From: the human T2T-CHM13v2.0 reference genome, Homo sapiens
Length of the DNA: 64,000 nt
Assembly (NCBI RefSeq): GCF_009914755.1
Contig: NC_060930.1
Reading direction: 5' to 3' (one strand)
A program made the translations under genes and the position numbers. The notes beneath the pieces were generated by a model. It was not told the origin of the DNA. It ran no database searches and was given only the letters and a program-made list of their open reading frames with translations. Positions 26,177 to 29,977 of this stretch are shown here, one piece after another. Positions within the stretch are counted from its first letter, which is position 1. Each line of letters starts with the position of its first letter.

Positions 26177-29100
26177 TTTTATTTTTTTTTTTATTATACT
26201 CTAAGTTTTAGGGTACATGTGCACATTGTGCAGGTTAGTTACATATGTATACATGTGCCATGCTGGTGCGCTGCACCCACTAATGTGTCATCTAGCATTA
26301 GGTATATCTCCCAATGCTATCCCTCCCCCCTCCCCCGACCCCACCACAGTCCCCAGAGTGTGATATTCCCCTTCCTGTGTCCATGTGATCTCATTGTTCA
26401 ATTCCCACCTATGAGTGAGAATATGCGGTGTTTGGTTTTTTGTTCTTGCGATAGTTTACTGAGAATGATGGTTTCCAATTTCATCCATGTCCCTACAAAG
26501 GATATGAACTCATCATTTTTTATGGCTGCATAGTATTCCATGGTGTATATGTGCCACATTTTCTTAATCCAGTCTACCATTGTTGGACATTTGGGTTGGT
26601 TCCAAGTCTTTGCTATTGTGAATAGTGCCGCAATAAACATACGTGTGCATGTGTCTTTATAGCAGCATGATTTATACTCATTTGGGTATATACCCAGTAA
26701 CGGGATGGCTGGGTCAAATGGTATTTCTAGTTCTAGATCCCTGAGGAATCGCCACACTGACTTCCACAATGGTTGAACTAGTTTACAGTCCCACCAACAG
26801 TGTAAAAGTGTTCCTATTTCTCCGCATCCTCTCCAGCACCTGTTGTTTCCTGACTTTTTAATGATTGCCATTCTAACTGGTGTGAGATGATATCTCATAG
26901 TGGTTTTGATTTGCATTTCTCTGATGGCCAGTGATGATGAGCATTTCTTCATGTGTTTTTTGGCTGCATAAATGTCTTCTTTTGAGAAGTGTCTGTTCAT
27001 GTCCTTCGCCCACTTTTTGATGGGGTTGTTTGTTTTTTTCTTGTAAATTTGTTTGAGTTCATTGTAGATTCTGGATATTAGCCCTTTGTCAGATGAGTAG
27101 GTTGCGAAAATTTTCTCCCATGTTGTAGGTTGCCTGTTCACTCTGATGGTAGTTTCTTTTGCTGTGCAGAAGCTCTTTAGTTTAATTAGATCCCATTTGT
27201 CAATTTTGTCTTTTGTTGCCATTGCTTTTGGTGTTTTGGACATGAAGTCCTTGCCCACGCCTATGTCCTGAATGGTAATGCCTAGGTTTTCTTCTAGGGT
27301 TTTTATGGTTTTAGGTTTAACGTTTAAATCTTTAATCCATCTTGAATTGATTTTTGTATAAGGTGTAAGGAAGGGATCCAGTTTCAGCTTTCTACATATG
27401 GCTAGCCAGTTTTCCCAGCACCATTTATTAAATAGGGAATCCTTTCCCCATTGCTTGTTTTTCTCAGGTTTGTCAAAGATCAGATAGTTGTAGATATGCG
27501 GCATTATTTCTGAGGGCTCTGTTCTGTTCCATTGATCTATATCTCTGTTTTGGTACCAGTACCATGCTGTTTTGGTTACTGTAACCTTGTAGTATAGTTT
27601 GAAGTCAGGTAGTGTGATGCCTCCAGCTTTGTTCTTTTGGCTTAGGATTGACTTGGCAATGCGGGCTCTTTTTTGGTTCCATATGAACTTTAAAGTAGTT
27701 TTTTCCAATTCTGTGAAGAAAGTCATTGGTAGCTTGATGGGGATGGCATTGAATCTGTAAATTACCTTGGGCAGTATGGCCATTTTCACGATATTGATTC
27801 TTCCTACCCATGAGCATGGAATGTTCTTCCATTTGTTTGTCTCCTCTTTTATTTCCTTGAGCAGTGGTTTGTAGTTCTCCTTGAAGAGGTCCTTCACATC
27901 CCTTGTAAGTTGGATTCCTAGGTATTTTATTCTCTTTGAAGCAATTGTGAATGGGAGTTCACCCGTGATTTGGCTCTCTGTTTGTCTGTTGTTGGTGTAT
28001 AAGAATGCTTGTGATTTTTGTACATTGATTTTGTATCCTGAGACTTTGCTGAAGTTGCTTATCAGCTTAAGGAGATTTTGGGCTGAGACGATGGGGTTTT
28101 CTAGATAAACAATCATGTCGTCTGCAAACAGGGACAATTTGACTTCCTCTTTTCCTAATTGAATACCCTTTATTTCCTTCTCCTGCCTGATTGCCCTGGC
28201 CAGAACTTCCAACACTATGTTGAATAGGAGTGGTGAGAGAGGGCATCCCTGTCTTGTGCCAGTTTTCAAAGGGAATGCTTCCAGTTTTTGCCCATTCAGT
28301 ATGATATTGGCTGTGGGTTTGTCATAGATAGCTCTTATTATTTTGAAATACGTCCCATCAATACCTAATTTATTGAGAGTTTTTAGCATGAAGGGTTGTT
28401 GAATTTTGTCAAAGGCTTTTTCTGCATCTATTGAGATAATCATGTGGTTTTTGTCTTTGGCTCTGTTTATATGCTGGATTACATTTATTGATTTGCGTAT
28501 ATTGAACCAGCCTTGCATCCCAGGGATGAAGCCCACTTGATCATGGTGGATAAGCTTTTTGATGTGCTGCTGGATTCGGTTTGCCAGTATTTTATTGAGG
28601 ATTTTTGCATCAATGTTCATCAAGGATATTGGTCTAAAATTCTCTTTTTTGGTTGTGTCTCTGCCTGGCTTTGGTATCAGAATGATGCTGGCCTCATAAA
28701 ATGAGTTAGGGAGGATTCCCTCTTTTTCTATTGATTGGAATAGTTTCAGAAGGAATGGTACCAGTTCCTCCTTGTACCTCTGGTAGAATTCGGCTGTGAA
28801 TCCATCTGGTCCTGGACTCTTTTTGGTTGGTAAACTATTGATTATTGCCACAATTTCAGAGCCTGTTATTGGTCTATTCAGAGATTCAACTTCTTCCTGG
28901 TTTAGTCTTGGGAGAGTGTATGTGTCGAGGAATGTATCCATTTCTTCTAGATTTTCTAGTTTATTTGCGTAGAGGTGTTTGTAGTATTCTCTGATGGTAG
29001 TTTGTATTTCTGTGGGATCGGTGGTGATATCCCCTTTATCATTTTTTATTGTGTCTATTTGATTCTTCTCTCTTTTTTTCTTTATTAGTCTTGCTAGCGG

Positions 29101-29977
29101 TCTATCAATTTTGTTGATCCTTTCAAAAAACCAGCTCCTGGATTCATTGATTTTTTGAAGGGTTTTTTGTGTCTCTATTTCCTTCAGTTCTGCTCTGATT
29201 TTAGTTATTTCTTGCCTTCTGCTAGCTTTTGAATGTGTTTGCTCTTGCTTTTCTAGTTCTTTTAATTGTGATGTTAGGGTGTCAATTTTGGATCTTTCCT
29301 GCTTTCTCTTGTAGGCATTTAGTGCTATAAATTTCCCTCTACACACTGCTTTGAATGCGTCCCAGAGATTCTGGTATGTGGTGTCTTTGTTCTCGTTGGT
29401 TTCAAAGAACATCTTTATTTCTGCCTTCATTTCGTTATGTACCCAGTAGTCATTCAGGAGCAGGTTGTTCAGTTTCCATGTAGTTGAGCGGCTTTGAGTG
29501 AGATTCTTAATCCTGAGTTCTAGTTTGATTGCACTGTGGTCTGAGAGATAGTTTGTTATAATTTCTGTTCTTTTACATTTGCTGAGGAGAGCTTTACTTC
29601 CAACTATGTGGTCAATTTTGGAATAGGTGTGGTGTGGTGCTGAAAAAAATGTATATTCTGTTGATTTGGGGTGGAGAGTTCTGTAGATGTCTATTAGGTC
29701 TGCTTGGTGCAGAGCTGAGTTCAATTCCTGGGTATCCTTGTTCAATTCCTGGGAACTCCCTGACCCCTTGCGCTTCCCAGGTGAGGCAATGCCTCGCCCT
29801 GCTTCGGCTCGCGCACGGTGCGCACACACACTGGCCTGCGCCCACTGTCTGGCACTCCCTAGTGAGATGAACCCGGTACCTCAGATGGAAATGCAGAAAT
29901 CACCCGTCTTCTGCGTCGCTCACCCTGGGAGCTGTAGACCGGAGCTGTTCCTATTCGGCCATCTTGGCTCCTCCCCC
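26177..29977 (-). mobile_element. L1HS Ta-1(nd), internally deleted (5'UTR ~1-227 joined to ORF2), 3.8 kb
   Basis: GGGGGAGGAGCCAAGATGGCCG 5' end; Ta markers (GACACATTAGTGG 'ACA', CTTAGAGTAT 'G'); Ta-1 marker CCCAAATGAGTAT; G74 retained (GACGGGTGATT); poly(A); TSD (CC)TGAAAGAGTATTTATTT at 26158-26176 and 29976-29994. Confidence 0.96.
26398..29829 (-). CDS. Chimeric open frame: 29 codons from 5'UTR/junction plus L1 ORF2p residues ~162-1275 (partial EN, RT, Cys-rich C-terminus)
   Basis: 1143 codons without stops; SKIDH, SDH, FADD and HCWWDC intact; first codon is GTG; first in-frame ATG at 29430 (~Met266). Expression not shown. Confidence 0.6.

What the first reader, a model, noticed from the sequence alone, without database searches (positions are those of the whole stretch)
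26398..29977. ORF1-less, endonuclease-truncated L1HS whose core promoter is fused in frame to an uninterrupted reverse transcriptase ORF
Seen: L1 5' end with intact YY1 motif (CAAGATGGCC) and ~227 nt of CpG-rich 5'UTR, joined directly to ORF2 at ~Asn162. The frame is open for 1143 codons (29 + 1114) to the normal IGGN end. Established: the first ~100-150 nt carry the L1 core promoter; EN needs N14/E43/D145 (lost here) as well as D205/H230 (kept); the RT FADD motif and Cys-rich domain are kept; ORF2 is normally the inefficiently translated second cistron; the antisense promoter/ORF0 region is deleted. Inference: this locus could make a monocistronic mRNA for an EN-dead, RT-competent ORF2p, from the near-cognate GTG at 29829 or the ATG at 29430 (~1010 aa). 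It would be a non-mobile RT source able to make cDNA or act in EN-independent insertion, inside an endothelial/HSC-expressed gene. Several short out-of-frame ATGs upstream of 29430 may limit translation.
Basis: partly seen in the sequence, partly recalled or inferred. Interest (0 to 1): 0.85.

Follow-up and report, generated by a model that had tools for sequence, protein, structure and literature searches.

The report
Internally deleted young L1 in MYCT1
This is a young human L1 retrotransposon copy that lost its middle 2.2 kb in a one-off copying or repair accident, leaving its start joined to an intact reverse-transcriptase reading frame, and nothing yet shows that it is ever switched on.

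Summary
On the minus strand, L1 5'UTR nt 1-227 (window 29977-29751) is joined to ORF2 at Asn162. The frame stays open for 1160 codons stop to stop (26398-29880) and ends at the normal IGGN. The join is not quite direct. Eleven nt (29750-29740) are an exact copy of sequence 9 nt downstream, bounded by two 3-nt microhomologies (CCC, AAC), with no GT..AG. That points to template switching, not splicing. The junction is unique in this genome.

The element has a 17-nt target-site duplication and a poly(A) tail. Over 3558 nt it is 99.6-99.7% identical to its 29 nearest copies. It has 4 private changes, 3 of them amino-acid changes: M754T, A881V, I1217V. All 29 of those copies are open over the same codons, so the open frame reflects youth, not selection.

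The coding potential is an endonuclease-less ORF2p starting at Met266 (1010 aa). This is close to the engineered delta263RTCys fragment, which works in trans (PMC4889948). Expression is untested. A spliced L1 5'UTR lacking nt 98-621 keeps only about 7-fold versus 267-fold promoter activity (PMC5860796). Verdict: a well-described but ordinary dead L1 remnant.

The parts
29978..29994 (-). 5' target-site duplication, 17 nt (AAATAAATACTCTTTCA). It could be 1-2 nt longer because the following G's are ambiguous with the L1 start.
   Evidence: Exact 17-nt match to 26160-26176.
29751..29977 (-). L1 5'UTR nt 1-227. YY1 box core at nt 13, the GAGGTACC splice-donor/RUNX3 context at nt 96, and 14 CpG.
   Evidence: 24 of the 39 other scored L1 5' ends match at 100% and 15 at 99%, all ending at query position 227. 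Motif positions; CpG count.
29740..29750 (-). 11-nt templated filler AGGAATTGAAC. It is an exact copy of the ORF2 sequence 9 nt downstream (29729-29719), bounded by CCC and AAC microhomologies. Its last 3 nt (AAC) double as the Asn162 codon.
   Evidence: Junction alignment. The 32-mer containing it, allowing 1 mismatch or fewer, is found only here and in one chr12 copy with two point changes. The 100 listed of 3096 copies all read AGAAAGT[C/T]AAC at this place.
26398..29880 (-). Open frame, 1160 codons stop to stop plus the TGA stop. The first 46 residues come from the 5'UTR and the filler; residues 47-1160 are ORF2p N162-N1275.
29509..29742 (-). Endonuclease remnant, ORF2p 162-239. It keeps D205 and H230 and lacks residues 1-161.
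   Evidence: Alignment to 1vyb_A/8sp5_A covers chain residues 156-238/239 only. Residue check. No Pfam endonuclease hit.
29428..29430 (-). First in-frame ATG, ORF2p Met266. It would give 1010 aa, 118.7 kDa. G at -3, A at +4. The stop of an 8-codon upstream ORF overlaps it (ATGA).
27907..28677 (-). Reverse transcriptase domain (Pfam RVT_1, P0001 residues 402-658). FADD lies at 28117-28128.
   Evidence: E 5.9e-48, 163.7 bits versus cut-off 29.6.
26785..26838 (-). Cys-rich CCHC motif, ORF2p 1130-1147.
26177..26397 (-). L1 3'UTR and a short poly(A) tail containing one T.
26160..26176 (-). 3' target-site duplication, 17 nt.

Best explanation
This is a young human-specific L1 (Ta-type by the recalled 3'UTR ACA diagnostic). 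It inserted by ordinary endonuclease-dependent target-primed reverse transcription, antisense in intron 1 of MYCT1.

It carries a single, unique internal deletion of about 2.24 kb, from L1 nt 228 to about nt 2467-2470. The deletion arose by two microhomology-guided template switches. A polymerase left the template at CCC (nt 225-227) and re-primed on the CCC about 2.25 kb further on in ORF2. It copied 11 nt, then slipped back 21 nt on an AAC and continued to the 3' end.

Shown: the structure, its uniqueness, the absence of splice signals, and the hallmarks of retrotransposition.

Inferred: the enzyme and the timing. My split is:
- about 45%: repair or replication after integration, by a Pol-theta-like mechanism;
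- about 40%: during integration, in cDNA or second-strand synthesis;
- about 10%: a progenitor that was already deleted.

Consequence: the copy cannot retrotranspose on its own, because it has no ORF1, no ORF2 start codon and no endonuclease N-terminal half. Its antisense promoter region is gone. Its RT frame is open only because the copy is young.

Most likely it is a weakly transcribed or silent remnant. Its only realistic coding product would be an EN-less ORF2p from Met266.
For: - Structure: the 5' part matches full-length copies at L1 nt 1-227, and the 3' part resumes about 2.23 kb later at 98.9-99.2% identity.
- Templated filler: the 11 nt differ at 3 of 11 positions from the ORF2 sequence expected there and are identical to the sequence 9 nt downstream. 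Among 3096 L1 copies that keep the downstream 21 nt, the 100 listed all read AGAAAGT[C/T]AAC. With 1 mismatch or fewer, only this locus and one chr12 copy match, and the chr12 copy is an ordinary contiguous L1.
- Uniqueness: the junction 30-mer with up to 2 mismatches has 1 match in 3.1 Gb, this locus, and 0 in the reversed control.
- Not splicing: the deleted segment begins TTTCCG and ends AAAGTC. No sliding of the boundary over the CCC gives GT..AG.
- Retrotransposition hallmarks: 17-nt TSD, poly(A), and an A/T-rich target.
- Youth: 9-15 mismatches in about 3558 nt to the 29 nearest copies. There are 8 differences from their majority base, and 4 of these are shared by 0 of 29. The 5'UTR part is 100% identical to 24 other copies.
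- The open frame is the norm: 29 of 29 nearest copies are open over the same codons.
- ORF2p shows template jumping in vitro (PMC10830420, passages).
- Weak promoter expected: SpIRE97/622 5'UTR gives about 7-fold versus about 267-fold over promoterless (PMC5860796).
Against: - Nothing here measures transcription, methylation or protein, so 'silent' is an expectation, not a result.
- Unlike SpIRE97/622, the retained 227 nt keep the complete GAGGTACC/RUNX3 context. Promoter activity could therefore be higher than in that comparison.
- The three timing scenarios cannot be separated from one haplotype.
- A long-read survey of somatic L1 insertions listed inversion-linked internal deletions and templated insertions. 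In the passages I read it had no class of full-length-end elements with a simple internal deletion (bioRxiv 10.1101/2024.08.27.596794). This makes an at-integration origin look rare.
- The Pol-theta signature is recalled, not checked in a paper.
Confidence: 0.8

Rival explanations
1. The locus is a working monocistronic gene. The retained 227-nt L1 promoter drives an mRNA translated from Met266, or from a near-cognate codon upstream. The product is an endonuclease-dead, RT-active ORF2p that makes cDNA, supports EN-independent insertion, or acts in trans.
For: - The frame, RT motifs, WD288-289, YY414-415 and CCHC are intact.
- The 5'UTR part is undecayed and keeps the YY1 box and the RUNX3/SD context.
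- Only three extra short upstream ORFs precede Met266, which has a purine at -3.
- EN-less ORF2p core is a highly active RT, and cytosolic hybrid synthesis is EN-independent (PMC10830420).
- delta263RTCys works with EN fragments in trans (PMC4889948).
- Monocistronic ORF2 mRNAs exist in brain (PMC12179785).
Against: - There is no expression evidence of any kind.
- Most of the 5'UTR is missing, and a comparable truncation lost about 97% of promoter activity (PMC5860796).
- Young L1 5' ends are normally methylated (recalled).
- The three private substitutions are untested, and some intact-looking ORF2 variants lack RT activity (PMC12179785).
- The 29 of 29 open frames among relatives show no sign of selection on this copy.
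- The GTG at 29829 has T at +4.
Confidence: 0.1
2. The element is a spliced integrated retrotransposed element (SpIRE), that is, a retrotransposed SpORF2-type spliced L1 mRNA.
For: - It has the general look of a SpIRE: the L1 5' end is present, there is an internal deletion, and it has a TSD and poly(A).
- Spliced 5'UTR-to-ORF2 mRNAs are known: Sp97/1837 and Sp290/1920 (PMC2896524).
Against: - The breakpoints (about 227 / about 2470) are not at the published donor or acceptor sites.
- There is no GT..AG at any register.
- The donor context at nt 96-100 is retained, not used.
- Splicing cannot create the 11-nt duplicated filler.
- No second copy exists, whereas SpIRE97/622 is recurrent (PMC5860796).
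Confidence: 0.02
3. A progenitor L1 already carried this deletion. Its RNA was mobilised in trans by proteins from another L1.
For: - The element has clean TPRT hallmarks.
- Trans-mobilisation of ORF1-less L1 RNA at low levels is documented (PMC5860796, pPL97/976 experiment).
Against: - No other copy of the junction, or of the 21-nt duplication, exists in this assembly.
- Cis-preference makes trans events rare (PMC5860796, passages).
- The nearest relative differs at 9 positions and is not deleted.
Confidence: 0.07

Closest known systems
SpIREs (spliced integrated retrotransposed elements; Larson et al. 2018, PMC5860796)
   Same: Genomic L1 copies that keep the true 5' end, lack an internal block, and have a TSD and poly(A). 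They are retrotransposition-defective and have a weakened promoter.
   Different: SpIRE junctions sit at defined GT/AG splice sites (97/622, 97/790, 97/976) and recur in many copies. This junction has no splice signals and carries a templated 11-nt copy with microhomologies. It is unique, and it removes ORF1 and the front of ORF2 rather than 5'UTR or ORF1 parts only.
SpORF2 spliced L1 mRNAs (Sp97/1837, Sp290/1920; Belancio et al. 2010, PMC2896524)
   Same: L1 5'UTR joined to ORF2 without ORF1, giving a potentially monocistronic ORF2 message.
   Different: SpORF2 is an RNA isoform, not a genomic copy. It keeps the ORF2 start codon and a working endonuclease, drives Alu retrotransposition and causes DNA breaks. 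The locus here starts inside ORF2 at residue 162 and cannot make an endonuclease.
Engineered delta263RTCys / delta348RTCys ORF2p fragments (BAR assay; Christian et al. 2016, PMC4889948) and ORF2p core 238-1061 (Baldwin et al. 2024, PMC10830420)
   Same: The Met266 product would be almost the same protein as delta263RTCys: WD288-289, PIP box, RT and Cys domain, with no endonuclease. The engineered fragments are RT-competent and act in trans with EN-containing fragments.
   Different: Those are codon-optimised, tagged, strongly promoted constructs. This is a native locus with a truncated promoter, native A-rich coding sequence and three private substitutions, and it is untested.
Monocistronic and partial ORF2 transcripts and genomic 'ORF2P alone' L1 copies (Nicodemus et al. 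2025, PMC12179785)
   Same: L1 copies or RNAs that encode only part of ORF2. In hg38 173 'ORF2P alone' and 104-105 'ORF2 alone' sequences were counted (Table 1).
   Different: The partial variants assayed there keep EN and RT and lose the C-terminus. The 5'-truncated reads lack the 5'UTR. Here the 5'UTR start is retained and the N-terminus is lost. I did not see their variant lists (extended data), so I cannot say whether this locus is among them.
Microhomology-mediated deletions with templated insertions (Pol-theta end joining or replicative template switching; recalled, no paper read)
   Same: Short (3-nt) microhomologies at both switch points, and a filler copied from within about 20 nt of the junction.
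   Different: The enzyme and the timing are not established here. An L1 ORF2p template jump during integration would leave the same scar.

Membership tests
LINE-1, human-specific L1 (L1HS/Ta) | L1 5'UTR beginning at the canonical 5' end with the YY1 box | tested here: met
   nt 1-227 are 99-100% identical to 39 other L1 5' ends. The YY1 box core is at nt 13. Only the first 227 nt are present.
LINE-1, human-specific L1 (L1HS/Ta) | ORF1 present | tested here: not met
   The deleted block covers L1 nt 228 to about 2467. ORF1 lies at nt 907-1923 in the natural full-length copy L010.
LINE-1, human-specific L1 (L1HS/Ta) | Complete ORF2 with an APE-type endonuclease | tested here: not met
   ORF2p residues 1 to about 158-161 are absent, there is no Pfam endonuclease hit, and the ORF2 start codon is absent.
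LINE-1, human-specific L1 (L1HS/Ta) | RT domain with FADD and the C-terminal CCHC domain | tested here: met
   RVT_1 at E 5.9e-48. Near-identity to solved ORF2p with no indels over residues 162-1275, and 3 substitutions found in total (2 visible in the printed alignment; all 3). Residue check.
LINE-1, human-specific L1 (L1HS/Ta) | 3'UTR, poly(A) and target-site duplication | tested here: met
   17-nt TSD and an A-rich tail.
LINE-1, human-specific L1 (L1HS/Ta) | Young-subfamily sequence (Ta diagnostic ACA in the 3'UTR) | tested here: inconclusive
   The 3'UTR reads GATGACACATTAG, and the copy is 99.6-99.7% identical to its nearest genomic copies. The diagnostic itself is recalled and was not checked against a reference table.
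SpIRE | Junction at splice donor and acceptor (GT..AG) sites of L1 RNA | tested here: not met
   The deleted block starts TTTCCG and ends AAAGTC. The donor context at nt 96 is retained and unused. An 11-nt duplicated filler is present.
SpIRE | The same junction recurs in independent genomic copies | tested here: not met
   1 match in the genome, the locus itself, with up to 2 mismatches allowed.
SpORF2-type monocistronic ORF2 unit | 5'UTR joined upstream of the ORF2 AUG so that full ORF2p is made | tested here: not met
   The junction lies inside ORF2 at residue 162, and the first in-frame ATG is M266.
The literature searches found no mention of this locus.

The most novel reading that the evidence does not exclude
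The locus is a natural, self-promoted gene for an endonuclease-less ORF2p, roughly the engineered delta263RTCys. In hypomethylated cells (early embryo, germ line, tumours, perhaps neurons) it would be transcribed from its own 227-nt L1 promoter and translated from Met266. It would supply reverse transcriptase without ORF1p and without DNA nicking. That RT could make cytosolic RNA:DNA hybrids that feed cGAS-STING, or team up in trans with endonuclease-only ORF2 fragments from other dead L1 copies to mobilise Alu.
Probability: 0.07. Interest if true: 0.6.

Novelty: new member of a known kind. Interest (0 to 1): 0.27.

Why it matters
As it stands, this is one more rearranged, dead L1 copy. Two things have modest value.

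First, the junction is a clean natural example of a double microhomology template switch with a templated filler inside an L1. This is distinct from splicing-derived SpIREs, so it is a useful caution for pipelines that call every 5'UTR-containing, internally deleted L1 a spliced element.

Second, L1 expression surveys are, as far as I recall, usually limited to full-length copies of about 6 kb. A 3.8-kb copy like this one, with an L1 5' end and an intact RT frame, would then be overlooked as a possible RT source.

If it were shown to be expressed, it would be a defined single-locus source of EN-independent RT activity. That would bear on where cellular RT activity and cytosolic cDNA come from. 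No evidence for this exists yet.

Tried and rejected
1. Splicing origin (SpIRE/SpORF2): rejected. There is no GT..AG, the known donor is retained, and a duplicated filler is present.

2. The 11 nt as ordinary L1 sequence variation: rejected. The 100 listed of 3096 copies all read AGAAAGT[C/T]AAC. The one near-match on chr12 is a contiguous L1 with two point changes.

3. A pre-existing 21-nt tandem duplication in a progenitor: no such copy in this genome.

4. Sibling copies with the same junction: none.

5. Identifying the source element: the nearest copy (chr12, L016) still differs at 9 of 3558 nt, so no progenitor can be named. Only 40 of 6921 candidates were scored, so a closer copy could have been missed.

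6. Selection on the open frame: rejected as an argument, since 29 of 29 nearest copies are equally open. This sample is biased, because it holds the copies most like an intact one.

7. Literature on this locus: MYCT1 + LINE-1/L1HS gave only an LTR7-driven MYCT1 isoform in testicular tumours (PMC13184619). Searches for ORF1-less, ORF2-only or internally deleted L1, internal deletion plus template switching, and SpIRE/spliced L1 found no description of this locus or of a genomic 5'UTR-to-EN-truncated-ORF2 L1. These searches cover only the main text of the held open-access library.

8. A search for a promoter deletion series of the L1 5'UTR found nothing useful. The activity of nt 1-227 alone therefore remains unknown to me.

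9. M754, A881 and I1217 are not mentioned in the ORF2p structure paper (0 occurrences each). The trialanine scan (bioRxiv 10.1101/721357) was seen only as a search listing, and its supplements are closed, so tolerance of the three substitutions is open.

10. A genome-wide census of other L1 copies with 5'UTR fused to ORF2 was not feasible, because the tools score or list only 40-100 matches.

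Full report
OBSERVATION

On the minus strand the window holds an L1 that begins at 29977 (GGGGGAGGAGCCAAGATGGCC...) and ends in a short A-rich tail at about 26177. 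A stop-to-stop scan gives one long frame, 26398..29880, of 1160 codons ending ...SLIGGN (protein P0001).

I searched the window's own genome (3.1 Gb, 24 contigs) with 278 nt spanning the proposed junction. The tool scored 40 of 2114 candidates. Only the locus itself matched the whole query. The other 39 are L1 5' ends whose match stops at query position 227, which is window 29751. Of these, 24 are at 100% and 15 at 99% identity.

Against three natural full-length copies fetched from the same genome (L010-L012):
- the 5' block aligns to L1 nt 1-227;
- the 3' block resumes about 2.23 kb further on;
- the 3' block runs to the 3' end at 98.9-99.2% identity.

PROTEIN-LEVEL CHECK

Solved human ORF2p chains align without indels. 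In 8uw3_A (1275 aa), residues 156-1275 match P0001 residues 41-1160, so ORF2p numbering is P0001 + 115.

Present:
- D205 and H230;
- W288/D289;
- Y414/Y415;
- D600;
- F700-A-D-D703;
- Cys 1130/1134/1143/1147.

Residues 1 to about 158-161 are gone. This stretch holds the recalled catalytic residues N14, E43 and D145. Pfam reports RVT_1 only (E 5.9e-48) and no endonuclease family.

From the GTG at 29829 there are 29 codons to Asn162 plus 1114 ORF2 codons, 1143 in all. The ATG at 29430 is Met266 and gives 1010 aa, 118.7 kDa.

THE JUNCTION

The join is not direct. The element reads:

...GGGAGTTCCC | AGGAATTGAAC | AAGGATACCCAGGAATTGAACTCAGC...

The natural ORF2 sequence reads ...GACAGAAAGTCAAC AAGGATACCCAGGAATTGAAC... 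The 11 nt at 29750-29740 differ at 3 of 11 positions from the ORF2 sequence expected there. Together with the preceding CCC, they are an exact 14-nt copy of the sequence that starts 9 nt downstream.

This is not family variation:
- 3096 L1 copies in the genome keep the downstream 21 nt preceded by AGNAANTNAAC. All 100 that the tool listed read AGAAAGT[C/T]AAC.
- Allowing one mismatch, the 32-mer occurs only here and in one chr12 copy. That copy is an ordinary contiguous L1 with two point changes.

So the element is L1[1-227], then a copy of L1[about 2481-2491], then L1[about 2471-end]. Here L1 nt 1 is position 56 of my reoriented copy of L010. CCC (225-227 = 2478-2480) is the microhomology at the first switch. 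AAC (2489-2491 = 2468-2470) is the microhomology at the second.

The deleted block begins TTTCCG and ends AAAGTC. No register gives GT..AG, and the known 5'UTR donor context (GAGGTACC, nt 96 here) is retained and unused. Splicing is therefore excluded.

The junction 30-mer, with up to two mismatches, occurs once in the genome, at this locus, and 0 times in the reversed control.

HOW IT GOT THERE

The element is flanked by an exact 17-nt duplication, AAATAAATACTCTTTCA, at 29994-29978 and 26176-26160. It ends in poly(A) at an A/T-rich target. This is ordinary endonuclease-dependent target-primed reverse transcription.

The double switch could have happened at three points:
(a) during integration, in first- or second-strand synthesis. 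ORF2p shows template jumping in vitro (PMC10830420, passages);
(b) after integration, as a microhomology-mediated repair or replication error with a templated insertion. The Pol-theta-type signature is recalled, and I read no paper on it;
(c) in a progenitor whose RNA was then mobilised in trans.

Option (c) is the least likely. No second copy of the junction or of the duplication exists, and L1 proteins prefer their own RNA (PMC5860796, passages).

Options (a) and (b) cannot be separated from one haplotype. I put them at roughly 40% and 45%. In the plus-strand direction the event reads naturally: jump forward on CCC, copy 11 nt, slip back 21 nt on AAC. That fits a polymerase working on single-stranded DNA.

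A long-read survey of tumour L1 insertions lists inversion-linked internal deletions or duplications and templated insertions. In the passages I saw, it has no class of simple internal deletion in an element that reaches the 5' end (bioRxiv 10.1101/2024.08.27.596794).

AGE AND THE OPEN FRAME

Over 3558 nt the 29 best-scoring other copies differ from this element at 9-15 positions, which is 99.58-99.75% identity. Only 40 of 6921 candidates were scored.

Against their commonest base the element differs at 8 positions, 4 of which are shared by 0 of 29 copies:
- 27965: M754T
- 27584: A881V
- 26701: silent, P1175
- 26577: I1217V

With no change in the 227-nt 5'UTR part relative to 24 other copies, this is a very young insertion. 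Using a recalled neutral rate, the age is of the order of a million years or less. Some private changes may also come from an unsampled progenitor.

All 29 of those copies are open over the same 1113 codons. An uninterrupted RT frame is therefore what one expects at this age and is not evidence of function. The fusion 'in frame' with the 5'UTR adds 46 residues but no ATG. The only 5'UTR ATG (nt 16) is in another frame and stops after 3 codons.

WHAT IT COULD DO

The copy cannot retrotranspose by itself, because it lacks ORF1, the ORF2 start codon and half of the endonuclease. The deleted block also covers the region where, by recall, the antisense promoter and ORF0 lie. So it cannot drive antisense transcripts into MYCT1, which runs on the opposite strand (hub annotation).

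If a transcript started at nt 1, its leader to Met266 would be 547 nt long, with four short upstream ORFs:
- nt 16: 3 codons, native to all L1 mRNAs;
- nt 400: 1 codon;
- nt 499: 9 codons;
- nt 525: 8 codons, with its stop overlapping the main ATG as ATGA.

Met266 has G at -3 and A at +4. Translation is therefore conceivable. The product would be nearly the engineered delta263RTCys fragment, which supports Alu retrotransposition together with EN-containing fragments (PMC4889948, passages).

EN-less ORF2p core (238-1061) is a highly active RT. Cytosolic RNA:DNA hybrid synthesis by L1 is RT-dependent and EN-independent (PMC10830420, passages).

Against it:
- There is no expression evidence.
- Most of the 5'UTR is missing. 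A 5'UTR keeping nt 1-97 plus 622 onward dropped from about 267-fold to about 7-fold over a promoterless vector. Mutating the donor/RUNX3 site alone left about 18% of the RNA (PMC5860796, passages). The element here keeps that site but lacks everything after nt 227.
- Some natural ORF2 variants with an intact coding RT domain had no RT activity when over-expressed (PMC12179785, section 37).
- The three private substitutions are untested.

COMPARISON WITH WHAT IS KNOWN

The kind is known. Internally deleted or rearranged L1 copies, spliced ORF1-less L1 RNAs (SpORF2; PMC2896524, passages), SpIREs (PMC5860796) and monocistronic or partial ORF2 transcripts have all been described. The genomic counterparts of the last group have also been counted: hg38 holds 173 'ORF2P alone' and 104-105 'ORF2 alone' sequences (PMC12179785, Table 1).

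What is particular here is the combination of three features:
- a true L1 5' end;
- a non-splice junction with a templated filler;
- an N-terminally truncated but otherwise intact ORF2.

My searches found no description of this locus or of this architecture. They cover only the main text of an open-access library, and I did not see the extended data of PMC12179785, which lists variants.

VERDICT

I file it as a new member of a known kind, a rearranged dead L1HS insertion, with low to moderate interest. The bold reading, a self-promoted RT-only gene, keeps a probability of about 7%.

Noticed in passing
L014:1480-1540 (G000 contig 12, around 101110225): An otherwise ordinary, contiguous L1 copy reads AGGAAGTGAAC where other copies read AGAAAGT[C/T]AAC. 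This is one mismatch from the filler in the window. It looks like two independent point changes, not a relative of this junction.
   Followed up: partly
window 29428-29453 (minus strand): An 8-codon upstream ORF (ATG at 29453) ends in a TGA that overlaps the Met266 ATG as ATGA. This arrangement is associated with termination-reinitiation. Because it lies in normal ORF2 sequence, it is present in every L1 that keeps this stretch.
   Followed up: no
window 15415-39062 (MYCT1 intron 1) and beyond: A database paper reports an LTR7 promoter driving a 5'-truncated MYCT1 isoform specifically in testicular germ cell tumours (PMC13184619, passage). I did not locate that LTR7 in the window. It shows that transposable-element promoters in this gene can be active in hypomethylated tumours.
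   Followed up: no
window 29745-29748: NCBI's repeat masking splits the element into 26162-29744 and 29749-29980. The gap lies inside the 11-nt filler, which agrees with the junction mapped here.
   Followed up: yes
window 23049-23636: An annotated HSPD1 (Hsp60) processed pseudogene fragment lies 2.5 kb from the L1 in the same intron, on the plus strand. It is another product of L1-mediated retrotransposition in this intron.
   Followed up: no
L010 (G000 contig 24, 4628300-4634500): This full-length L1 copy, used as a ruler, has an intact 338-aa ORF1. Its ORF2 is broken into pieces: the longest ATG-ORFs are 394 and 461 aa.
   Followed up: no
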